Source: Chrysochromulina tobinii
Taxonomy: Eukaryota
Direction: 5' to 3'
DNA length: 32,025 nucleotides
Assembly: GCA_001275005.1 (NCBI GenBank)
Contig: JWZX01003049.1
Location: 1 to 32,025, forward strand
Shown here: piece by piece, positions 1 to 31,655 of the stretch
Layout: each line of letters begins with the position of its first letter
Position numbering within the stretch: position 1 is the first letter of the stretch
Notes under the pieces: model-generated
Told to the model about the DNA's origin: nothing
What the model saw: the letters and a program-made list of their open reading frames with translations, nothing else
The model's database searches: none
Position numbers and translations under genes: made by a program

Positions 1-286
1 GTTTACGCGAGCGGTAGTACGTATACACAGCGGGTGCGTATACGTACCCCCTCGCGTATACACAGGTTTCTGCGTATACGCACCCCCGTCCGCGTAAACA
101 CAGGAAACGACAAACCGTAATGAATCGTACGGCTGCGAGGCGTGGATGCCGGGTACGTCCGTGCCGTACGCTACTTTGCAGTCGCCACACTATTTCTGAC
201 CATGACCTCTCCAAAGGCCAGCTACAGTCCCGACTCGCTAGCACGACAAACGCACGGAAAGCTGCACTGACGCCTTGAGCATTTCC

Positions 287-1534: not shown

Positions 1535-4500
1535 TCATGGAGCATGCACATCGCTCGGCTTCCGGCCCTTGCTCTCCGTCGTCGCCACCGTGCCCTCCTC
1601 ATTGCTTTCTCGCGCCTCGCGCAGCTGATCGCGCAGCCTCACGCGCTCCCAGTCGTTGGTCGATAGGATGGTCGACCCGTCCCCACTCCGCATGTGGTAC
1701 AGCCCACGGACGACTTCGTCAGCCTCGACGAGCCGCTTGATCTCGAGGCGCACGCAGCGGGAGAGGCTCACCTGCTCGCGCTTGAGCTCCTCCACGCGTG
1801 AGCGACTGTACAGCAGGCGCGCGAGCATGGGGCGCAGGTCTCGTAGGGCGATCATGCCCGACTCGACCGAGATGACTCCTATGTACCTGATGAGGGAGTC
1901 AATCAGGTGTCATCAGAGGTCGTCAATCTACTGTCGTAGGTCACGAAGAGGTCATCAAAAGGTCATCAAGAGCCCCTCATGGTTCATCCGTGGCTATAAT
2001 GTACGAGGCGAGAGGCGCGATCATGAGCAGCGTGATCACGTCGTGCGCCGACATCGAGGTGCACGCCAGCAGGAGCGCTGCATAAGAGAGCCAAACCTGA
2101 GGGACGGAGGCAATTAGATGTGTCATCAGAGGTCATCAAGAGGCACTCATGGTTCATCCGCCTAGGAGCACCATACAAGGGGCACCGCGACCTGATGAGG
2201 GAGGCAATCAGAGGCCATCAGAGGCCATCAGAGTCAATCAGAGGAGCGCCATACAAGGGGCACCGCGACCACCGCAAACTTGAGCTTCTCGGAGAGGAGC
2301 ACGTCGTGCCCCGTCCGTTTGACCGTTGAGGAGGCCAGAGCCACCCGCTGCCGCCATCTGGAGCACGCGAGGGCGGCGAGACGGATGCACTCAGAGGCAC
2401 TCAGAGGCACTCAGAGCCTATCAGAGCCAATCAGAGCCAATCAGAGCCACTCGGAACCAATCAGAGCCAATCAGAGTTCATCAGAGCCAATCAGAGCCCA
2501 TCAGAGCCAATCAGAGCCAATCAGAGCCCATCAGAGCCCATCAGAGCTCTTCAGAGCCAATCAGAGCCCATCAGAGCCCATAACAGTTCATCAGAGCCAA
2601 TCTCACTTTGACCACGCGAGGGCGGCGAGGCCCACGGGCGCGTTGAGGATGATCGAGGGCACCGACGCGATCATGAGCATCACGAACATGTGTCCTATGG
2701 TGAAGAGCGTCGCACCCACCGGAGCACGCTCGAGCGTTGGCACCTGCGAGTCACGCAGCCCGAGCCGCCGCAGCTCCTGGTCGTACCTGAGGAGGGAGGC
2801 AATTAGGTGTCATCAGAGGTCATTAAGAGGCAATCAGCTCCTGGTCGTACCGGCGCAGCCTTTGCATGAGCTCGGCCAGCTCGCGCTGACGAAGCAGCGC
2901 CTTGAGCTCGCGCAGCTCGGTCGCCACGTCACTCGCCTCGCTCGAGCCGCCGTCGCCCACGGCGGCGGCAGCGACGCCGTGGGCAGCCGGAGCGCCGCCG
3001 CTGTTGCCGCCGTTGCCGCCGCCGTTGCCGCCGCCGTTGCCGCCGTTGCCGCCGCCGTTGCCGCCGCCGTTGCCGCCGTTGCCGCCGCCGTTGCCGCCGT
3101 CGAGTTGTCGGAGGAGTCGTCGGATGCCGAAGGCAAAGCGGCGGTCAAGGTCCTGGCGCACGGCCGATTCAAGCTTGCCCGACATGCCCGGACCGCACCA
3201 GAGCCGGCGTACCACGTGGACCAGCTGCAGCTCCTCAAAGGACGAGACGGGCACGATCACGTCCCGCATGGCTCGCTCGATGCGGGCGAGCAGCGCCGTG
3301 CATGCGCGCTGCCGACGCTCGCCACCATGCGCGTGCTCCGCCTTCTCGGCCTTGGAGGCCAGGATGGGCGGCCCCACATGCACAGTCACCTTGGCGGAAC
3401 GGAACACATGCCCGCGGAAGTAGGACAGCCCGACGGGTACGATGGGCACCTGAAGCTGCGCACTGAGGGCGAGGAGCGCCACGCCCGGCTTGAGCTCCAG
3501 CAGGTCGGTGCGGTCGTGCGAGCCGCCCTCTGGGAAGATGCCTAGGCACGCGCCCCTGTCGAGCGCCTTGACCACGTCGGGAAACACCTTGTCATAGTCG
3601 CCACGGGGCAGCACGCGGTATGCGCCGCTTGCGGGCAGCGTCCAGCCAGCGTCGCCGCACGCGTGTTCATGGCGTGTGCCCAAGGCACCGTGTTGCTCAA
3701 CAAGACGCTCATATGGAGGCAAGACGGGCGAAGATGTAGGCAAACTGGCCAAGGGCGCCGGAGGCAAGACGGGCGACGCGGTTGGCGAGCTGGCGCAGGG
3801 TGGCTGCGCGAGGCGCACAAAGCATACTGCGTTGCTCTCGATCGCCGTCACGCGCCAGACCCAAGTGAGCGTCGGCCTGCGCCCGTCGACGAAACTCAGC
3901 TTGTCCCCACACCCAAGCTCCGTGCAGAAGCGGCAAGCCTCGCTGCCAACGAGCCGATAGAGATCCGCACGTGGCTCCTCGGGCTGCCCGTCAGCGGCGG
4001 CATCGCCGCCTGTGGTGCGGCCGCCCTCAGTGGGCTCGGTGGTCTCGCGCGAGGTGGCGGCGGCGGGCTCGGCGCGCAGCTGCAGCAAGGCGCCCGAACC
4101 TGCGAAGGCAACATCTTGCGGGCGCGTGACCGGCACAGCCGCCATCGCTCGCGCAAAAAAGCCGATGATCGGGTGTGTGTACGACTTGCGTGCGATGAGG
4201 AAGCTGATGCGCCGCTGCGGGCACGCACACATGACGCACATGCCGTCGATGAACTGGTTGAAATGATTGGCGACCAGGATGGCTGGCCCGTGCTGCGGGA
4301 TGTTCTCCATGCCGATGACATCGATGCGGCTGATGAAGATGGAGAGCATCGAGTTGAAGAACACACGGCCGGAGTAGAAGACGAGGCTCTGGAGGTCTTG
4401 TAGCACGGCCAACACGAGAAAACAAACAAAGGCCCATCCGAATGCCACGCGGCCCCACTCGGCCAAGCCCGCAAGCGTGCACAAGCGCTTCACCGGGTTG

Positions 4501-4778
4501 AGCGTGTCGAACGAGAGCATGATGAGCACGACGAGGATGAAGAGGTGCATCGTAGTACTCGTCGTTGAGCCGAGCACCTGGCTGCTTGGACGAGGGCGCG
4601 GAAAGGTGAGCTCGTCCTCCTCCTCCTCCTCTGGAACTTTCGGCTCAGCCATTCCAGGCACCTCCACCGGCTCCGGAATATTCGGCTCAGCCGTTCCAGG
4701 CACCTCCACTGGCGGCAGGCTTAACGAAGGTTTGTGCGGTGGCTTTGGCTCGCTCCTTGGCGGGCCAGCCCAGTCCAT
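1535..4778 (-). CDS. Glycerol-3-phosphate/DHAP O-acyltransferase, fungal Gpt2/Sct1 type; exons 4778-2851, 2786-2607, 2357-2270, 2191-2177, 2096-2005, 1886-1535 (884 aa)
   Basis: PlsC motifs ANHFNQFIDG (HX5D), VTRPQD, GIFPEGGSHD, IVPVGLSY. Removing five GT-AG introns gives one frame: ...RRYDQELRRLGLRDSQV...LNAPVGLAALAWSKWRQRVALASS...HDVLLSEKLKFAVVAVPLVWLSY...SYIGVISVESGMIALRDLRP. Exon lengths sum to 2655 nt. Confidence 0.9.
1887..2004 (-). mobile_element. Introner-like intron A (118 nt) in acyltransferase
   Basis: Sense: GTACAT...TGATGACC-type repeats...TGATTGACTCCCTCATCAG; next exon also begins GTACAT; removal restores frame (A-S-Y-I-G). Confidence 0.8.
2097..2176 (-). mobile_element. Introner-like intron B (80 nt)
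   Basis: Sense: GTATGG...TAATTGCCTCCGTCCCTCAG; next exon begins GTTTGG; removal gives P-L-V-W-L-S-Y and removes an in-frame TAG. Confidence 0.8.
2192..2269 (-). mobile_element. Introner-like intron C (78 nt) with 29-nt target duplication
   Basis: Direct repeat 2164-2192 / 2242-2270 (1 mismatch); CTGATTGACT/CTGATGGCCT units; ends TGATTGCCTCCCTCATCAG. Confidence 0.8.
2358..2606 (-). mobile_element. Intron D (249 nt): about 22 copies of a 10-nt repeat (sense TGATTGGCTC-like); acceptor region duplicated from the upstream exon
   Basis: Donor AA|GTGAGA, acceptor CTCCAG|ATGG; 17-nt direct repeat 2364-2380 / 2613-2629, offset 249 = intron length; (tcagagccaa)n array at about 2388-2600. Confidence 0.85.
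2787..2850 (-). mobile_element. Introner-like intron E (64 nt) with 17-nt perfect target duplication
   Basis: cagctcctggtcgtacc at 2771-2787 and 2835-2851; sense ends TAATTGCCTCCCTCCTCAG; the unspliced ORF stops inside it (TAA 2823-2825). Confidence 0.88.
2995..3099 (-). repeat. Coding minisatellite encoding a Gly/Asn tract (GGN/GGGN)n
   Basis: Alternating gccgccgtt and gccgccgccgtt units, in frame in the acyltransferase. Confidence 0.9.
4639..4709 (-). repeat. 42-nt-period coding duplication (PVEVPGxAEP x2)
   Basis: ttcggctcagcc[a/g]ttccaggcacctccac at 4639 and 4681. Confidence 0.85.
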
Positions 4779-5008: not shown

Positions 5009-7318
5009 ATGCTCATGACAGACTACCAGCAGCCCACGGGCAGGCTCAACCTAAGATTCGCGGACAAGGTCGCCGACGGCCACCACCAATGGCGCAGCCA
5101 GTCGCAGCCAAATGTTCACCTCAAGGAGCGCTGTGGGGGCGGCGACCTGAACAGCCGAAGTGGCTGCGGCATGTGGAAGCCCAAGGGCGCGCCGTGCCCG
5201 CATTGCCAGCGTACCGCCAAGCAGTTCGGCCTCATTGACACGCAGCAGTCGACGCTGACGCCTATGGCAAAGCTGAGCGCAAGGCTCGGCAAACCCGTCC
5301 ACCTCACGATGCCGAGTGGAGCGCTCATGAAGAGCTCCTCGGTGTTCGCGCTGAGGACGACTGAGGAGCTTCTCAGCGGACGCCGGTACGACAGCACCAC
5401 GGCGCACCTGAGCCACGAGGAGCCGCCGACGCGACGCCCCTCGTCGGCCCAGTCGCTCGCGCCCGGCGGCAACAGTACAGGCCGCCGAAGCCCAGCCGAA
5501 GCTTCAGCGGTGTCGATCTCACCATCGTCTCGATCCGCGCCGATCTTCGAGGACGAGGCGAAGGAGATGAAGACCCTCGCCACCGCCTTGCGAGAGGCGG
5601 CCATGTGTCGCACGGAGTGTGCGCACGCCCTCGACCACCTCGCCTCCGACTTTGAGCGCGAGTTCCGCCCGGGCATTCCATCGCGCCCCGCAGCGAGCTC
5701 TCTCGTCGTCAAGAGTAGCACGATCGCCTCGCGCCTGTCGACGGCGTGCTTCAGCCTCGAGGCGGCCGCGGCGACGTGCCTGCAGATCTCGCGCATCGGC
5801 GCCATCGAGCGCGAGTCGATGATCGACGCGCTGCAGGACGACGCCATCCAATTCGATCATAGGATCGACGAGGCGAAGGCGGCGATGCGTCGCGTCGAGA
5901 TGAGCAAGCTGGACGAGCGCGCGGTGTACGACAAGCAGGCGCGCGCCACGGCGCACGCGATGGCCATCGAGCTCGCGCGCGCAGAGCACAAGATTGACAC
6001 ACTGCGCGCCGAGCTGAGCGCAAGCCGGATCCTCATGGGCAGCGCGCTCGAAGAGGAGCGCGCCAAGGTGGTCGCGCATCTGCGCGCGCAAGCGATCAAG
6101 AGGATGCTCAAGATCGAGCTGGCGCGTAGTTGGACGTCGTGGATGGACACGTACAAGCGAGGCCGGAGGCTCAAACGGCGTGCGCTGCTGCGATTTCGTC
6201 AGGGCGAGCTCAACAAGGCACTGAGCACCTGGGCTCAGGTACGTCCGCCCCCCTTTAGCCCTATACCGCCCCCCGAGAGCCCCCCGATGAGCCCTGAGGA
6301 CCTCGTTGATGACCCTTGATGACACCATCGGTGCCCCTCCGCACGGCCCAGGTACACCCCCCGATGAGCCGCATACGGCGCGCGATCGAGCCATACAAGC
6401 AGCAGATCGCCGACCTGGAGCGCGACCTACGCAAGGAGAAGGCTGCGCATGAGATGACGCGCACGATGCTCGAGGCGCGCGCGTTGACCACGGAGGAGGA
6501 GATGCATCGGCGGCGTGAGGCTGAGAAGCACCATCGCATGCAGCACCTGCTGCAGGTAGCGGTGCGCCGGACGCTCAAGATGGACCTCGCTCGCGGTTGG
6601 ACTCAGTGGCACGACGTGACCAAGCATACCAAGATCAATCGCATGCGCGCGCTCGCCCGCTTCCGCTCGCAGGGGCTGTTCAAGGCGCTGCGCACGTGGC
6701 GCCTCGTGTGCCCGCCGCGACACCTGACGCCCGAGAGCCTGATCATCTGCCAGGAGGCGCTCGAGCGCGAGCGCGCTGCGCACGCCAAGTGCCGCGCGCA
6801 GCTGGTCAAGCTGCGCGAAAAGTGGGAGACGAAGTTCGAAAAGTATCGCGAGGCCGTGCAGACGGCGGCGACGCTCCAGTCTGTGGTGCGTGAGCTGCAG
6901 GCGGTGCTCAAGGAGGCCCTCGACGCCTCCTCGTGGTCTTCCTGCCGGATGGTCCTCTACCACGAGCACCTGCGCTACGTCCCCTCGGCCGCGACGCATG
7001 GGCGCGGCGGCAGGTGGCGTGCAGGCCTCGCGCGCAAGAAAAGGGCGAGATTGATTACGAGATTGATTGCATGCTGTTTGCATGCTGTTTGCATGCTGAT
7101 TGCATGCTGATGGCCTCCTCATCAGGTGGCGTGCAGCCTCGCGCAAGAAGGGCGAGATAGACTCGCGCCTCTCCAACGGCTGGTCCGTCGGGCGCCTCGT
7201 CGACGGCTCCCATCTCGAAAAGGTGCTCACGTGGCCAAGCTCCTTGCGCGACACGCCGTTCGTGCGGAGCGAAGACCTGGTGCCATTCCCCCTGGAGCAC
7301 GAGCGCGCGATGGAGTGA
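5009..7318 (+). CDS. Coiled-coil protein with Trp-containing Sfi1-like repeats; exons 5009-6238, 6352-7013, 7126-7318
   Basis: ORFs 4889, 6316 and 7100 join in frame through GT-AG introns. Duplicated module AIKRMLKIELARSWTSW...LNKALSTW / AVRRTLKMDLARGWTQW...LFKALRTW. Start codon uncertain. Confidence 0.65.
6239..6351 (+). other. Intron F (113 nt), probably an eroded member of the duplication-intron family
   Basis: CAG|GTACGT...CCCAG|GTACAC; ccccccgatgagcc occurs in the intron (6280-6293) and next exon (6357-6370); degenerate TGATGACC units. Confidence 0.75.
7014..7125 (+). mobile_element. Introner-like intron G (112 nt) with stuttered 33/38-nt duplication
   Basis: Intron 7014-7051 copies exon 7126-7158 with +G, +CG, +AA; (ttgcatgctg)-type repeats; ends TGATGGCCTCCTCATCAG. 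Confidence 0.88.
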
Positions 7319-7449
7319 GTGAATAAGCGCGTGAATATTGTTTGAGATTGCGTATGTGTTTGTTTGCGGTGGGAGTTGGTACGAACTACATCCACAGTCA
7401 TTGGCTCTGCATCAGCAGCACGCCAGCCGTGGCATCAGCAGACCCTAAG

Positions 7450-10370
7450 CAGACCCAAGCTAGGTAATTACCTCCACCGTAGCTCTAGCTGGAGCCACGA
7501 ACATTAAGCTGCCAGGCCAAATGACATTGCTTGCCACTGAGCTCCTCCTAACCACCAGCTCAGTTGGAAAAGCAGAAGCATCAGCTTGCATGGTTACGTC
7601 GTGCTCCTACGGCCTCTCTTACCTCTCCGCTTCAACCAACAGTCGGTGCAGTTCCTTTGCCACTTTACGCTCTGCTACCGCGTACCATCTTCATCAGACG
7701 CCCTGGCGAGTGCTCTGCGAGAAGGCGGAAGCAACTTTCGACCGCCTGCTTCTGGTCATCTGGTGCGTGGTGGACAAAACCGAGCTTGTGATTCGCATCC
7801 TCAAGAAGTTTGAGCCTGATGATTCGCTCATCCACACGTTCGTGAAGAACAGCTCAAGAACAGCTCGAAGATCGTGAAGAACAGCGGCGAGCTACTCTTC
7901 GAACTGCCGCGATACGACTTATGCTTCGAGCTCTCCAGTGACAACCAACAGCTGTGGTCGAAGAACTTAATTGGCTTCTCCCTCACAGCAAGACTCAGCA
8001 GCTCAAGACGCTCCACGGCTTCTAGCAGTATCTCGTACTTGAGTCGGGCAAGCAGAAGATCCTCATTGTTCCGCGGGGCGACGTGGTGAGAGAAGGTGAG
8101 CGGGTCTTCATCGACGGATCGAGCGCGTGCGACGCCAAGCGTGAAGTCACTGAAGTGCATAGGTATGACGTGCACGAGCGTTTCAAGAGTCTCGAGTCGC
8201 CAGCTGGTCTACAGCTGGTCGGCACTCGGTACTAGCGCGCCTGCTGCTGGCCGCGCTTTCTGCTGCTACTGGCACGGTCGACCATATGCAGGCTCACAGC
8301 AGACCGGCGGAGAGCCGGAGAGTCGGCTATCGAGCTAGTGCGCCAGTGCTGGGTGAATCGTCCGCTCGATTGCGAAGAGAGCAAGCACAGCTCCAGTCCG
8401 TCTCCAACTTTAGCCAGCTCGTGCCCGCCCTTCCTTTGATCTGCCACGAGTTGTACATGAGCGCGCGTGAGATGAGTTTTCTACACGCCCCAGATGCTGA
8501 TCCCCCAGAGAAGCTGGCATTCAACGCGGACGGCGGACCCCGCGACGGAGTATACACACAGCGGAAGCAGGCTATGCAACTCAACGCGCACGAGATGTTG
8601 CGCCCTGACGAGGAAACGCGCTCGCTCGCGCACTTGGTGAGACCGCGCTCGCTAAAGAACCTCGAGCGCAATCTTGACGTCCTGCCTCCGAGTCGGAGGA
8701 GGCCACAGCAAGGTGATCCAAGAGACCGAGGAGACTTTGAAGGCGATGATCACGGAGTCGTCTACGGACTCTTGACCCATCGCTGCCTTTCCCCCTAGTT
8801 GATGTCGCAGACTTTGAAAGCACACAGCCCGGCAAGCACATGTTCACGGAGCTCCGCGATAGCTGGGGGGCGCACCAAAAGATGCTCTCAATCCAGCTTG
8901 CAGCGAAGCACACCATCCTGGCGGATCTCAAGAGACAGCGAGAGACGATTAGCGTCGTCTCGTGCATTCGGGTGCAATGTCCTGCCAACTTCAACATGCG
9001 CCGTGCCGCAAACCGTGTCCGGAATGCAAACCTGGTCCCGCACGTGACACTTCGTGACCTCGCCCGAGTATCGCCCGAGCAGCGCTCCACTCAGCCGAGC
9101 TGCTGCGCTTCAACCCGTTCCTCTCGGTATAGGGGCAGAAGCACAGTAAGGCACAGCTGCACGAGTGGGTGCTTGACTGGCTCAAGTACTGCGTGCTCGA
9201 AGACCAACTAGAGCGCATGCATTCGAGCGCCTTGGCAGCGGCCTCTGCCTCCGCCGCTGCCGCCTTCCAGGAGCTCAAGCGTGAGCTCGAAGAGATCGGG
9301 CGCGAATGGGAGGTGCATGTACACCCGGAGTGAGGAGTGGCTGGTCTTCAAAGTTGAGCAGTAGCTCAAGATCCGGCGGGTGCAGTACATGACAAGGGCA
9401 ATCCCTGTGCCGCTACTCAGCTCAGCATGGGCGAGGGCAAGACGCGCGTCATCCTCCCGATGCTTCAGCTGCACCTGCGCGGCCGGGCAAACTCGTGAGG
9501 ATGCACTTCCTCACTATTCCTCACAAAGCTCCTCGTCGAGGCTTACTTCTTCCTCCACCGTGGACACCTCACCGCCAGCCTGATGAATCGGCGGCTGTGC
9601 CTGCTGCCCTTCCACCGCAAGGTGAAGCTCACGATCAATGACGTGCTACGGATGTACCAAGGGCTGCTGCGCTGCGAGCGAAACGGCGGCGCTGTTTTCT
9701 TCACATCAGAGCACCGTCTTTCACTGCAGCTCAAGGGCCACGAGCTGCGCCTCTCTGAGAAGGGCAGCGGGGCTAATGCGGACAGCTTTGAGCGGATCCG
9801 CGCCAAGCTTGACCAGCTGCACAGCCTGCCGTACCACGATGTGAGAGCGACGAGGAGCTACGCCACCACACAGTTCCAGCTAATCTACGCATGGGGTAAG
9901 CTGCAAGCCTTTGCCGGCGGGGTCCGAGCGATGGATCGCAGCAGAGGCGCTCCTACGCGAAATCCAGCACAATCCTGAGGCGACGATAATCCTCGCCACG
10001 CCCGACGTCTCGAAGCGGCAGAAGCGGCAGCTAAGCGGCAGCCACTCTTCTGGCGCTTGGCCCGCAGGCGCAGGAGGCTGAGTACACGCTGTGGCTGTCC
10101 TCCGCTTCGCAGATGATTAACGATGAGCAGAGGCAGGCGCTCGACTCGGTTGACAAGCTCGATCTGACGAGCGAGCCGCAGCAGCTAGACATGCTCTTTA
10201 CCCTGTGCAAGTACAATATGGCTGCGGTCAACTTCTGGCTCAATAGCTGTGTGCTTCCGCGTGAAACAATGCAGTTCCCCAACCGCCTGTGGCCAACGCG
10301 TTCAACTTGACTGACAATCCCTCAGGCGAGGTGATCGGCTTCTCGGGCACCAAGGACAACAATCCTCGAG
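7450..10370 (+). pseudogene. Heavily disrupted DUF3638/DUF3645-family giant P-loop protein fragment
   Basis: Collinear motifs across shifting frames: EWLVFKVEQ*LKIRRVQY (about 9335-9388), QLSMGEGKTRVILPML (about 9418-9465), LLPFHRKVKL, EHRLSLQLK, ESDEEL...QLIYAWG, VNFWLNSCVLPRETMQFP, IGFSGTKDN (about 10334-10360). Multiple stops and frameshifts; boundaries approximate. Confidence 0.78.
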
Positions 10371-10455
10371 CGAACAGCTGTGTGTCTCAGACCAGCACGA
10401 TCGAGGGGAGGGTGGGTCGGAGGGTGGGAGGCAGCGTGTGAGACATATGGGCTAG

Positions 10456-23418: not shown

Positions 23419-26400
23419 TCAGATGAGCTTCGCCTCGGCGGCGCTGAGCTTCGCCTGCAGCTCTTCCTTTTCGTTGACGAGCTGTAGGATCTGCTCCGAT
23501 TGCGCCTGCAGCATCATGCGCATTTGCCCCTCATCCTCCGCGTCGATGGTGCCCGGCCCCCGCCCGAGCACGCGCCCCCCGGTGGCGGAACGCACCCATG
23601 GCGCCGCGTCGCGGACTCCATGGCGTGTTTCGCGCGCCTTGGCAAGCTTCACCTCCAGAGCCGTCATCTTCTCAAGCTCGGCGACCCGCTGGACCTTCGC
23701 CTTGCGCTGCAGCCGTTGCTGCTCCGCGAGCTCGTGCCCCAAGGCCACCTTCTCGGCGAGCGCCTGCGCCGCCTCCATCTTGGCACGGCGGAGCTCCGCC
23801 GTGAGCGCCTCCACCTGATGAGGGAGGCCATCAGCATGCACTCAGAGACGCACTCGGACGCAATCAGGCGGAGCGCCGCCGTGAGCGCGGCCGTGAGCGC
23901 CTCCACCCGCGCCAATGCGTGGAGGGTCGAGCGCAGAGGATCCGCGGAGAGGCGATCAGCCGCCACGCCGCTGCCGCCCACCGCTGCGCCGACACCCTGG
24001 GCGCCGCTGCCCTCGGCACGAGCGGACTTGGCGCGAAAGGCAGCGGCGTCGGACTTGAGCTGCTCGATCTCGTCTTGCAGCGCGTCGCGCTGCTGACGGC
24101 AGCGCACAAAATCCGCTTTGGCGCTCAGCAGTGCCATCTCCGCATCCTGCTCGGCGTCTGAACCGTGCGTGGACCCTGGCTTCGCCCAACTCAGCGCGCT
24201 CGCCACGGCGCTACCGTGCGTGGACCCTGGCTTCGCCCAACTCAGCGCGCTCGCCACGGCGCTGGCGGCACTCGCCTCGCCGACGTCAGCGCCGCTCCCC
24301 GGCGCGCGGTCCGCCCAATACGGCGCGCGGTCTGCCTGCAGCCGCCCAGCTGGGATGCGTGCCGCCTCGGCCGCCTCGACCGCCACCATCGCCTCCGCCT
24401 CGGTCAGCTTCCGATGCGCCATCGCCACCTCGCGTTCAGTGGGCCGACCGAACAGTTGGCTCAGGGCGTAGATGCCGCCGGCGCCCGTGCCGGCGCTGAT
24501 GGCCACCGGCACGCGCACGGACGCCGCGCCGCCCGCTGCGCTGCCCTCCGCGCCGTGGTGGGCACTTGCATGCGCGCCCCCCGCCGCCTTACTGGCTGCG
24601 CCGTCCGCCACGCCGCCCGCCGCGCCGCCCGCCTCGCCGCCGTCCGATACGTCCACGGGGTGCGCTGAGACGGGGGCGGCACCCAGTACAGCGCGGTAGG
24701 CGTGCGCGGCCACCTGCGGTGCACCGCTCTTGAGGTACATGTTCGCTGTGGAAAGGAGGAGGGAGACGCGAGGATGCACCATGAAGGCGGCCTCGTACGC
24801 GCCACGTGCGCGCGCTGCATCGCCCACCTCGTTCGCCGCTTTCCCCTCGGCGATCAGCTGATCAGCGAGCTGAGAGGCCGCGCTGCCCCCAATCCCGCCT
24901 CCCCGCCCGTCAACGCCGCCGTCGCGGGCCGCAAGTTGGGCAAGCCTTGCGTGCGCTGCCGCGTGCTCGAGAAGGGATTGGACCCGTGATTGCCCATGCT
25001 CGGCCGTCGCCGCCGCGCGGCTGGCCAACTCATATGCACAGCGCTCGAGGTAGAGGCTCGCCCGTGCGGACGCTTCCTGCTCGGCCGCCACGAGCGTCGC
25101 CAGCTGACCGCGCTGCAGTTGCATGCGGTCAGCTAGCGCCGCATGCTCCGCCGTGAGCCGACCGAGCTCGGCGCGCGCCGTGCTGAGCGCCTGCTCGGCA
25201 CGTTCTCGCGCCGCGAGCTCCTCCTCGCGCCTGGCGATCGCCGCGGCGGCCATCTCCTGCGCCGGCTTGATGGCGGTCTCCGCACGGCTCTGCGCCGCGA
25301 TGGCTGCGGCGAGGTCTGTCTTCTCATCAGCGTTGGCCGTAGCCGAGGCCGCGGCCGAGGCCTCGAGGCAGCTGAGCGCCTCACGGGTCGCCTCGAGCGC
25401 GTCCTTAGCCTGCTCGGCCTCACGCATCGCCCTCGCCACCGCCGCGCGCGCCGCCGCAGCTTCGGCGAGAGCCGCGGCTGCCTCCGCCTCGGCGCTGGCC
25501 GTGTGCTTTGCCTTGAGCTCCGCCTCGAGCTCAAGCAGACCGAGCTCGGCAATGCAAGCTCTCCTCTCGTACTCGAGACGGTCGGCGCGCCTCGAGGCTT
25601 CGAAGTTCGCCTCCTGCATGCTCGCGAGCTGCTTCTCGAGCACCACGGTTCGCGCCTCCGCCGCCACCAGCGCCGTCGCCGTCGCGGCCGCCTCCATTTT
25701 AGGATCGATTCCTTTTTTAGGCTCGCTTCCCTTTTTAGGATCGCTTCCACCGAGCGTCTCCGTCCCCGCACGTCCGTAGTAGCTTTGCGAGTTCCCTGGC
25801 GTGTACTTATACACTGTCTTGCCTTCCTCCGTCTCCTCTTTGAGCTTGCCTTCGGCGAGGAGCTGCTCGAGCAACTTATGCCGAGCCAGCTGCCCCCCGG
25901 TACGTGAACTCGTTCTTCAGCTCGAGGTGCCTGGGCATCAGAGCACCGAGCACGCGCCCGGCGCCGCGCTTGCCACGCTGCTGCTCCTCGATCATCGCCT
26001 CGAGCTCCTCCTCCGTGTCCAAGTCGCGGTCGTCCTCCACGTCCGACGCCGCGTCCGACTCGCCCGACTCGCCTCCGGCCGCTTGATGTGAGGCCGCTTG
26101 ATGTGCCACTCGGCCTGCGCCACCGCCGCCGCGCCGGCCGGCGCTGGCTCGCGGGAAACTCTCGCCCGCCTCCGACCCGACGTCGGACAAGTCGGCGTCG
26201 GTGTCGTCGTCGGCCGTGGGCCAACCTGACGACTCCGCCTCTGACCCGATGGACGACAAGCTGTCGCTCCGACCCGAGTCGCTGCCCGAGTCGCTCGATG
26301 CGAGCGGCTTGCCGCTGGAGCCGTGCTTGTCGTAGTTGCGCAGCCAGCGCGAAGAGAGCGTGAGCACGAGGTCGCCCACGGGCACGCCGTCGTGCAGGAG

Positions 26401-28877: not shown

Positions 28878-31655
28878 TCACTTGGCGGCCTTGCCTTTCT
28901 TGGCGGCCGCAGGCTTGGTTCCCATCTCGGGCTGTGTGGGGCGCGCCACGTCCCGCAGCCGTACGGCGAGCCCGCCGCGCTCGCCAACGAGCTCGACCGC
29001 ATGGCGCTGGCCCGCCTCTTCAAAGTATTCCTCACCCACCTTGATGAAGCAGTCCACCTTGAGCAACCCGACCTTAAACTTCTCTACCTCCTCCTTGCGG
29101 AACTCATGCTTCTTCCGGAGCGCCTCGCTGAGCGCCTCGTTGAAGAGCTCGGTACCAGAAGCTGGTCGCTCACGCCCAACATTCGTCCACTTGGTTCCGA
29201 GCGCGGGCGGCTCGTTGGCCAGGTGGAGCAGGCAATAAAAGGCCTGCGCAATCGAGATGCTCTCGGGCTTGGCGGGCGGCGGCATCCGCTCGGGCAGCCG
29301 ATGCAAAGCCTGCTGGAAGTCCACCACGCGCGTCGGCGAGCCCGCACCGTCGCCCTGTAGCAGGGTCCACAGATCCTCCTTGAGCTTGCCCACATCCACC
29401 ACTGTCGAGCGGCGTGCGGTGGGCCAATCCTTGGAGCTCACCTGATGAGGGGATTACTCAGAGGTCATCAGTGCCAATCAGAGGTCATCGGGGGCCAATC
29501 CTTGGAGCTCACCTGATGAGGGGATTACTCAGAGGTCATCAGTGCCAATCAGAGGTCATCAGGGCCAATCCTTGGAGCTCACCGCGATCTGCGCCGGCGG
29601 GACGATGGGCGCGGGCGCAGGGGCGCGAGGGCCGGCGCCGGCGCCACCATCCTGCTCGTCCCCGCCACCGATATCCCATCCGCCCTCCTCGTCGGGCCAG
29701 TTGCCGTCGTCGCCGTCGTCGCCCCCGTACGCGTCGACGCCATCGGCTGCGCCCTTGCTCGCTGCACCGGGCTCGGCGGAAGAAGAGGGTCCGTTGGCGA
29801 GGGCCTGGGAGCCGTCGGCGTCCGGGAACAGGCTCTCGGTCCGGCGCTTGGCCTGACGCTGCTGGCGCTGCACGTGCCGCTCGTACGCGATGCGCTTCGA
29901 CGGGCGCTCGAAGAGCGTCTCGAGCGCCGCCATCTGCACTTGGAAGTCGCGCTTGAGCAGTGTCTCAGCCGCCTTGGCCTTGGAGAGCATCGTCTTGGTC
30001 AAGATGGTCGTCCCCTTTGTGTCGAGCGCCGCCGCGTCCTCCAGCTCAAGTACGAGCGCCGCCGCGTTCGAAAAGTCGACCGTGACCGGCTCCTTGGCCT
30101 TGCGCGCCCCCGCACCCGCGCCGGCCGCGCCTCCCGCAGCAGCCGCGCCCACACGGTTCCGGCGTCTCCTCGCTAGCTGCTCCGCCATGCTGCTGCCGCC
30201 CTGGTACCCGTTGCCCTCGAGCCCGCCCCCGTCGAGCTCGAGCTCGTCGCCGGCGTCGTCGATGAGCGATGCGGGGCCCTCGGCATCGACGAGGCCGATG
30301 AGCCCCCCCTGGGACTGCGCCACGCGCTCGTCGGGCTCGTCGGCAGCTCCGGGTCCGTCGTCGCCCCAGCCGTCGGCGCCGTCGTCGGCGAACTCATGAG
30401 CACCAGGGCTCGACAGCGCTGGGGGTGCAACCTCGGGCGCGGCGGCCAGCTCGGGCTCCAGCTCGGGCCCCGGCTCTGGCTCTGGCTCCGGCTCGGGCTC
30501 CGGCTCGGGCTCGAGCTCGAGCTCGAGCTCCGCCTCCGGCTCCTCCTCGCCGTCGTCGGGCTCGCCGTCGGGCCGCCGCTCCGCCCAATACTGTCGGAAG
30601 GCTGTCGCCACCCGGAGCTCCTTTGTCACCGTGGGCAGCAGGCCGACCAGAGCGGCCGCGGGCAGCGGCGCCGGCGGCGCGGCGACCTGCGCCTGAGCCC
30701 GCGCCGCCGCACTCGCCACCTCCGCGTCGCGCGCGTCGAGGACGAGCGTGAGGCCGTCGGCGCCGAGGTCGAGGCTGTGTACCATCAGGCCGCGCGCGCC
30801 CTTGATGCCGTACAGCGCGGAGGTGCGGTAGAAGAACGGGTCGGCGTCGGCGCCGAGTTCGTGCTTATCCATGTTTAGCTTCGACGGGTCGGTCTCCAGG
30901 TACGCGGTCGGGTTCTTGCGCTTGGGCTTCTTGGGCTTCTTGGGCTTCACGATCTTGGACTGGACGAAGTTGAACAGTTCCGTCGCCTTGGCGTCGCTCA
31001 GGTTCAGCTGCGTCGCGATCTCGTGCATGTCGGCGGGACTGGCCGTCTTCTTAGCCTCGGCCATGAGCGCGGTCATCTCTTCCACGACCGACGCCTCCGC
31101 CCACTCGGGCGCGCCCTCGAGGTCGACTGCGCCAGCCTTGGCGCCCTCCTCCTCCTCCTCCTCGTCCGCCGGGTCGTCCACCTTGGCGCCCGGCCGGTCG
31201 ATCATGCGGCGGAGCCGCTCCTGCTGCATCTCGAGCGCATCGACACGCGCCGCGATGATCCGGGAGCCCGCATCGAGCATCATCGCCCCCTTTTGGAAGA
31301 TCTCGATGGTACCGCCGGTGGAGTTGCGGTCCATGTCGCGGATCATCCGGTCCATGTCGTCGATGTTGTACGCATTCAGGAAGGCATTCTTCTTGTTCAC
31401 CTTGTTGTCCATGAAGCGCTTCATCGCGTCGCCGTAACCCTCTAGGCGTCGCTCCTGGCGACCTGGCGTTTCCTTGAGCGGTGACTTCACCTTGGCGAGC
31501 TGCTTCTGCACCGCCGCCTGCGCGGCCTCCTGGCGCTCGTTCTCGTCATCGTTCTCGTCCAGGCCGACGTCACCAGGCAGGAACCCGCCGGACAGGCGGC
31601 GCTTGCCGCCCGACGAGTTGCGCCGGGGGGCGATCACCGGCAGCGGAGAGCTCAT
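28878..31655 (-). CDS. NCAPH: Condensin I kleisin subunit CAP-H (Barren/Cnd2/Brn1); exons 31655-29583, 29441-28878
   Basis: DNKVNKKNAF, FQKGAMMLDAGSRIIAARVD, DPFFYRTSA...GARGL, VDVGKLKEDLW, ISIAQAFYCLLHLANE. Confidence 0.9.
29442..29582 (-). mobile_element. Tandem twin introner-like introns (29513-29582 and 29442-29512) with no exon between
   Basis: 22-nt gggccaatccttggagctcacc present three times (29421, 29492, 29562); each unit in sense is GTGAGC...TAATCCCCTCATCAG. Confidence 0.88.

What the first reader, a model, noticed from the sequence alone, without database searches (positions are those of the whole stretch)
1887..2850. Five repeat introns within 1 kb that resemble each other most: local cis propagation
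Seen: A and B share a 30-nt block with 2 mismatches (1961-1990 / 2131-2160, ...ctcatggttcatccg). A, B and E share caat(c/t)ag..gtgtcatcagaggtc. I did not see these blocks in introns G, H or the CAP-H pair, and the first 1.9 kb of the CDS is intron-free. Inference: new introns are templated from neighbouring introns of the same gene or transcript.
Basis: partly seen in the sequence, partly recalled or inferred. Interest (0 to 1): 0.7.

Follow-up and report, generated by a model that had tools for sequence, protein, structure and literature searches.

The report
Algal introns copied from their neighbours
Three of five recently gained introns packed into one kilobase of a lipid-synthesis gene of the alga Chrysochromulina share rare sequence marks, so they were likely copied from one another at the DNA level, a local route to new introns known elsewhere only from a few cases.

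Summary
Partly confirmed. Removing five GT-AG inserts (A 1887-2004, B 2097-2176, C 2192-2269, D 2358-2606, E 2787-2850, minus strand) restores an 884-aa glycerol-3-phosphate acyltransferase that aligns gap-free there with relatives. A close protein relative is named Chrysochromulina tobinii. The A/B block (28/30) and the A/B/E motif are real. The inserts belong to a 10-mer-repeat intron family with thousands of copies, which this scan met before on other DNA (e1-2577349). The block is rare: one further locus per whole-run contig set, against 2,119 and 2,781 family contigs laid, though a sensitivity control failed. The A/B/E motif is in at most about 7%. Only A, B and E form a private, 3'-anchored nested series; C is near consensus and may be part of B; D has opposite polarity. 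Each insert duplicates its own target (6-28 nt), in C across an exon-intron border, which excludes plain reverse splicing. Best reading: DNA template switching to a nearby intron, with genome-wide spread also occurring. The genome-wide distance test could not be run.

The parts
1535..4778 (-). Host gene: glycerol-3-phosphate O-acyltransferase, 884 aa after splicing
   Evidence: ORF; PF01553; homologs; one search named relative KOO24828.1
1887..2004 (-). Intron A, 118 nt; first 6 nt copy the downstream exon; carries the block and the A/B/E motif with an internal expansion
   Evidence: RNA contig X15 record 17 joins 1880 to 1999
1961..1990 (-). Shared 30-nt block, copy in A
   Evidence: 28/30 to the B copy; no other contig laid at 1952-1989 in X1 or X12
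2097..2176 (-). Intron B, 80 nt; target duplication decayed; likely the oldest of the series
   Evidence: age is inferred
2131..2160 (-). Shared 30-nt block, copy in B
   Evidence: found at B, at A and at one other locus per DNA run
2192..2269 (-). Insert C, 78 nt, near-consensus body; its first 28 nt (2242-2269) duplicate 2164-2191 = 15 nt exon + first 13 nt of intron B; may be spliced with B as one intron 2097-2254
2358..2606 (-). Intron D, 249 nt, 21 copies of a 10-nt unit; opposite polarity: its last 23 nt copy the upstream exon (20/23)
2787..2850 (-). Intron E, 64 nt; 16/16 target duplication; body matches the 3' 48 nt of B; doubled in tandem in allele L002
   Evidence: 13 of 13 listed cluster proteins from other records that reach this site read into it
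6239..6351 (+). Intron F in the next gene; diverged; nearest to B and A; possible fourth member of the local group
   Evidence: suggestive only
7014..7125 (+). Intron G (comparison member, other subfamily)
23815..23906 (-). Intron H (comparison member, shares 18 nt with G)
29442..29582 (-). Tandem pair of near-identical 71-nt units in the condensin subunit gene (comparison; local tandem doubling)

Best explanation
Introns A, B and E are a related, 3'-anchored series within a large 10-mer-repeat intron family, and they likely arose by DNA-level copying from a neighbouring intron in this gene. Shown: each insert ends at a splice acceptor, runs a variable distance upstream, and is preceded by a variable-length copy of its own target that supplies the GT donor; A, B and E share variants that are rare in the genome. 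Inferred: during repair of a break or restart of a fork, the new strand leaves the exon at a (G)GT, switches to an existing family intron at its CAG|GT junction, copies 45-110 nt, and returns 6-28 nt away at a short microhomology, duplicating the target. Any family member can be the template, but one a few hundred bases off is favoured. Inferred order: B early, C after B, E from a B-like template, then tandem doubling of E in one allele. Selection keeps the products that splice. No enzyme is identified.
For: Rarity: block at A, B and one other locus per run against 2,119 (X1) and 2,781 (X12) family contigs laid; exact scan found only this gene; A/B/E motif at most about 7%, P(3 of 4)=0.0013 at that rate. 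Nesting: E matches the 3' 48 nt of B, and A is B with an internal expansion. Within-window rank 1 of 70; clustering P=0.002-0.01. DNA level: 5' ends follow the target, not the donor; C duplicates 13 nt of intron B, and the two alleles each differ from C's copy at one base of the same CG. Local doubling seen directly: E+E' in L002 and the CAP-H pair. Both polarities occur (D). Junction microhomology 10-16 nt summed over 6 inserts vs 4.6-9.8 expected, P=0.02-0.03. G before GT in 6 of 8 targets vs 28% background, P=0.008. Recent gain: relatives align gap-free, one as an 895-aa single ORF on a 12-kb contig.
Against: The completeness of this genome in the collection scanned is unknown. The third locus matches B slightly better (32/34 in X1) than A does and lies outside all DNA held, so the type also moves between genes. 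G and H share 18 nt across 17 kb. C and D show no private link to A, B, E. The microhomology test is weak and used boundaries I set by eye. C ends exactly at CAG|GT although it may not need its own acceptor, which fits an RNA-defined end as well. Later conversion between neighbours would leave similar marks.
Confidence: 0.5

Rival explanations
1. A rare, genome-wide B-type subfamily of a mobile element (retroposon-like, primed at staggered nicks) hit this gene several times in trans, because the region is an insertion hot spot or was open during one burst.
For: A third locus carries the block and a B/E-like end. Variable target duplications with a fixed 3' end and variable 5' end are what target-primed reverse transcription gives (established for non-LTR elements; recalled). 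Allele L002 has a further insert of a different family 115 nt from A, so the region takes inserts that no neighbour templated.
Against: The subfamily is rare, so three hits in one kilobase need a strong local bias anyway. No poly(A) tail; D has the opposite polarity; no partner element found in the window.
Confidence: 0.2
2. The introns came independently from the family, and A, B and E were later made alike by short-range gene conversion or slippage between neighbouring repeats.
For: Repeat units turn over fast between alleles: C, D and E' differ in several units while exons differ at 11 of 1,614 sites. A has the consensus variant in the window and the B/E variant in L002 at one site.
Against: C lies 15 nt from B yet stays near consensus. 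Similarity is nested from the acceptor outward rather than patchy. Conversion does not explain positional clustering.
Confidence: 0.15
3. The excised RNA of a neighbouring intron is the template: its 3' end is joined to the DNA of the same gene and copied from the acceptor inward, and repair synthesis adds the target duplication.
For: Exact CAG|GT 3' junction even in C; sense orientation in all cases; G|GT targets; all 8 family sites mapped on three genes lie in the 3' 41% of the CDS. An R-loop reverse-splicing model exists for Micromonas (PMC4540971, passages read).
Against: That model inserts the intron cleanly, with no duplication. D's polarity and F's position in another transcript do not fit. 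Selection and GT microhomology can give the same junction.
Confidence: 0.1
4. Chance: low-complexity 10-mer arrays converge on similar variants.
For: Short sequences, few comparators (9 bodies), grouping chosen after the fact.
Against: The block includes a non-repeat 15-nt exact stretch seen at one other locus per run; rank 1 of 70.
Confidence: 0.05

Closest known systems
Nearly identical intron pairs of Oikopleura dioica (Denoeud et al. 2010, as reported in PMC3879977 and PMC4122922; passages read, original not read)
   Same: Related new introns within one gene.
   Different: Four pairs among about 75,000 introns, ascribed to reverse splicing. Here the copies are partial, 3'-anchored, carry their own target duplication and belong to a family of thousands.
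Same-gene duplicated introns (SGD) of fungi (PMC3609843, passages read)
   Same: Intron copies in the same gene without duplication of whole flanking exons (half of SGDs).
   Different: SGDs are by definition found only within one gene and are rare (82 in 24 species); here a high-copy family has a local sub-lineage plus at least one outside copy.
Introners that take one splice site from the target duplication: Symbiodinium, Polarella glacialis classes 4/5 and 6/8/10, Chrysochromulina sp. family 5 (PMC9860276, passages; bioRxiv 10.1101/2020.10.14.339549, first quarter read)
   Same: High-copy intron family; the element carries one splice site and the duplicated target gives the other; both polarities exist.
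   Different: Those have fixed 4- or 8-nt duplications, several with inverted ends. Here duplications run 6-28 nt in this gene, bodies are variable 10-mer arrays with no defined 5' end, and neighbours are related.
Daphnia pulex neointrons from staggered double-strand-break repair (PMC4202315, passages read)
   Same: New introns flanked by a variable direct repeat of adjacent exon (4-12 bp there), with internal repeats.
   Different: Daphnia inserts are AT-rich and mostly of unknown source; here the source is a recognisable family and often likely the neighbour.

Membership tests
Introner (DNA-transposon type) | Many similar introns in unrelated genes | tested here: met
   2,119 and 2,781 contigs laid on A-C; members in 4 genes of the window
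Introner (DNA-transposon type) | Removed by splicing | tested here: met
   A: RNA contig joins 1880 to 1999. B/C: RNA contigs stop at 2096 and resume at 2253, a hint only.
Introner (DNA-transposon type) | Gained recently at new positions | tested here: met
   Relatives gap-free at all five sites; P0005 is one 895-aa ORF on a 12.4-kb contig
Introner (DNA-transposon type) | Fixed-length target duplication | tested here: not met
   Exact 5' duplications of 6, 2, 21, 16, 4, 11, 17, 21, 21 nt
Introner (DNA-transposon type) | Terminal inverted repeats or defined ends | tested here: not met
   Bodies share a 3' end but no common 5' end and no inverted ends by inspection
Introner (DNA-transposon type) | Autonomous partner with transposase | not testable with these tools
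Reverse-splicing intron transposition (Oikopleura NII model) | Whole intron copied, no target duplication | tested here: not met
   5' ends copy the target exon; C duplicates intron B sequence
Same-gene duplicated introns (SGD) | Near-identical copies only within one gene | tested here: not met
   A third locus holds the block; family is high-copy
Break-repair neointrons (Daphnia type) | Variable direct repeat of adjacent exon at the far end of the intron | tested here: met
Break-repair neointrons (Daphnia type) | Dependence on an end-joining or template-switch pathway | not testable with these tools
   Microhomology excess P=0.02-0.03 is indirect
Non-LTR retroposon (SINE-like) | Poly(A) or simple-repeat tail and a partner retroelement with the same 3' end | tested here: inconclusive
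   No tail in any of 10 inserts; partner not searched

The most novel reading that the evidence does not exclude
This alga's thousands of repeat introns spread without any transposase: repair synthesis copies the 3' end of an existing intron into a nearby break, so introns seed new introns along the chromosome and leave readable local family trees gene by gene.
Probability: 0.25. Interest if true: 0.8.

Novelty: new variant of a known kind. Interest (0 to 1): 0.5.

Why it matters
How new spliceosomal introns arise is still argued, and the donor sequence of break-repair introns is usually unknown. Here donor, target duplication and order of events can be read in one gene, in a cultured alga with a public genome and thousands of family copies. 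A simple distance-versus-similarity analysis would test whether introns seed their neighbours, and would separate transposon, repair and RNA-based models. It also shows that the public model of this lipid-synthesis gene lacks its last third.

Tried and rejected
Viral-contig scans for the block and family patterns gave 0, 0, 0 hits. Genome-contig scans gave 0 and 15 hits, a short viral scan 13; all 28 lacked repeat arrays and were dropped as chance. Protein searches with read-through frames of intron B, meant to find the block in other genes, gave only P0123, this same gene's intron joined to what I recall as a prolyl-tRNA synthetase motif, probably a chimeric contig; and nothing. These searches are insensitive (3 and 1 candidates). 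Exact protein look-ups of three window ORFs failed. The 24/24 match of the L002 extra insert to window 24550-24573 first looked like 22-kb local templating; rejected as evidence because a near-identical motif ends an unrelated intron-like stretch in L003, so it is a second family. The middle of A and the 5' part of F have no source in the window beyond 11-nt chance matches. Plain reverse splicing rejected (target duplications). Segmental duplication of exon plus intron rejected for A, B, E: flanking exons are unrelated. Four runs with next to none of the words were not used.

Full report
What is there. The region is the 3' third of a minus-strand gene (ATG 4778, stop 1535-1537). Removing five GT..AG inserts, A 1887-2004, B 2097-2176, C 2192-2269, D 2358-2606 and E 2787-2850, gives one 884-aa ORF with an acyltransferase domain. 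It aligns without gaps at all five sites to homologs; the nearest outside relative, P0005, is a single 895-aa ORF on a 12.4-kb contig, so the inserts are lineage-specific gains (the intronless state of relatives is inferred from ORF and contig length). A member of the same 90% cluster is KOO24828.1 of Chrysochromulina tobinii CCMP291, on a contig of the window's length. That public model stops at 570 aa. An RNA contig joins 1880 to 1999, the removal of A given its 6-nt duplication. RNA contigs of two runs stop at 2096 and fit again from 2253, a hint that B and C are removed leaving one copy of the 15-nt exon.

The observation. The A/B block matches at 28 of 30. The 15-mer core of the second motif is exact in A, B and E and absent elsewhere in the window at up to 1 mismatch. 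With target copies stripped, A,B,C,E have the highest mean pair score of 70 possible subsets, and A-E of 126 (9 bodies, the second CAP-H unit left out as a near-duplicate). The signal comes from B-E (70), A-B (58) and A-E (55). E matches the 3' 48 nt of B, and A is B with an internal expansion. C is near consensus and D is another unit. G and H, 17 kb apart, score 50. F, in the next gene, is nearest to B and A (44, 39), within the range of some unrelated pairs (41-50), so only suggestive. Clustering in 375 of 2,652 coding bases has P=0.002, or 0.01 with four events.

Is the block common elsewhere? First, an exact pattern scan of the metagenome collection gave 2 loci, both this gene: L001, 99.98% identical to the window, and L002, another allele. 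How much of this genome that collection holds is unknown. Second, whole-run contigs of two DNA runs were laid on 1800-2340 at 80% likeness: 2,119 (X1) and 2,781 (X12) contigs were laid, almost all on C. In single-copy depth units, extra cover was 0 and 0 over the A block, 103 and 66 over A's 3' end, 35 and 40 over B's repeat part, and about 9,500 and 8,100 over C. These are rough, since summed depth is no copy number. Taking 138 of 2,119 as an upper bound of about 7% for the A/B/E motif, three of four same-polarity inserts carrying it has P=0.0013. Third, laying on 2129-2182 alone gave 2 records in X1 and 3 in X12: the gene's own contigs (B and A copies) and one foreign contig each, 32/34 and 30/32. 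Its flanks are not in the window, L001 or L002, and in X12 they show a B/E-like intron end. The block is rare but not unique. The window's left edge is only 1.9 kb from A, so the third locus need not be unlinked.

Anatomy and mechanism. A, B, C, E, F, G, H and the CAP-H units begin with a copy of their own downstream sequence (exact 2-21 nt; 27/28 in C) that supplies GT, and end in CAG, most after a CCTC run. D is reversed: its last 23 nt copy the upstream exon (20/23). The copies therefore do not carry the donor's 5' end. C's duplication covers 15 nt of exon and 13 nt of intron B; window and L002 each differ from C's copy at one base of the same CG. So C came after B, on unspliced sequence. 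B and C can also be spliced as one intron 2097-2254 with the same protein, so 'five introns' may be four. L002 has E doubled in tandem with a rearranged second body, and the CAP-H pair is a 71-nt doubling: local duplication is seen directly. E is present in 13 of 13 listed cluster proteins that reach the site (15 of 27 members listed). Junction microhomology is modestly above chance (P=0.02-0.03) and 6 of 8 targets have G before GT (P=0.008). I infer a template switch during break repair or fork restart that copies a family intron from its acceptor inward and returns a few bases away, with near templates favoured (0.5). Rivals: repeated trans insertion of a rare subfamily into a hot spot (0.2), supported by the third locus and by an insert of a second family 115 nt from A in L002; later local conversion (0.15); an RNA template in cis (0.1); chance (0.05).

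Comparison with the literature. Same-gene intron copies are known: four pairs in Oikopleura, ascribed to reverse splicing (PMC3879977, PMC4122922, passages), and 82 fungal same-gene duplications (PMC3609843, passages). Introners that take a splice site from a fixed 4- or 8-nt duplication are known, including a Chrysochromulina sp. family with 4-bp duplications (PMC9860276, passages; bioRxiv 10.1101/2020.10.14.339549, part 1 of 4). Daphnia neointrons have variable 4-12 bp repeats from break repair but mostly unknown donors (PMC4202315, passages). An R-loop model inserts introns cleanly (PMC4540971, passages). The C. tobin genome paper mentions introns once in its main text and no intron repeats in the passages shown (PMC4580454). 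PMC12130899 holds none of my terms for haptophytes. Nine searches listed no paper on local propagation of a repeat-intron family in haptophytes; the library is incomplete and I saw no supplements, which may list this family. The scan described the family before on another piece of this genome (e1-2577349).

Verdict. It works like break-repair or template-switch intron gain with a recognisable donor family. It is not a member of fixed-duplication DNA-transposon introners, nor a reverse-splicing pair, nor a strict same-gene duplication. The local kinship of A, B and E is likely real; the general rule is untested. New variant of a known kind; interest 0.5.

Noticed in passing
L002 2975-3055 (minus); site = window 1771/1772: Presence/absence insert: L002 has an 81-nt GT..AG insert with a 19-nt target duplication that the window lacks. 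Its body belongs to a second repeat family; it is in frame without a stop, so splicing is untested.
   Followed up: partly
window 24550-24573: The second family's 24-nt motif lies inside an open reading frame here and matches the L002 insert 24/24; possibly an exonised relic. A near-identical motif ends an intron-like stretch in L003 4495-4541.
   Followed up: partly
L002 4031-4168: Intron E is doubled head to tail with no exon between, like the CAP-H pair at window 29442-29582; a candidate for recursive splicing or acceptor choice.
   Followed up: partly
window 1535-4778: Public model KOO24828.1 (570 aa) departs from the 884-aa reading and lacks the conserved C-terminal membrane region.
   Followed up: yes
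window 2129-2162, foreign contigs: The third locus may hold two tandem B-type copies, and the non-repeat half of the block could be that gene's duplicated exon carried along, which would make it the donor of A and B.
   Followed up: no
window 1887-2850, 6239-7125, 29442-29582: All 8 family sites mapped on three genes lie at 59-91% of the CDS; a 3' bias worth testing genome-wide.
   Followed up: partly
window 24162-24263: Perfect 51-nt tandem duplication in coding sequence, in frame: target-style duplication with no insert.
   Followed up: no
window 7440-10380: Lower-GC stretch with broken reading frames that looks like a decayed gene or mobile relic.
   Followed up: no
window 1-127 vs L002 1-1362: The two alleles have unrelated sequence left of window position 128; the window has an inverted repeat at 1-99.
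   Followed up: no
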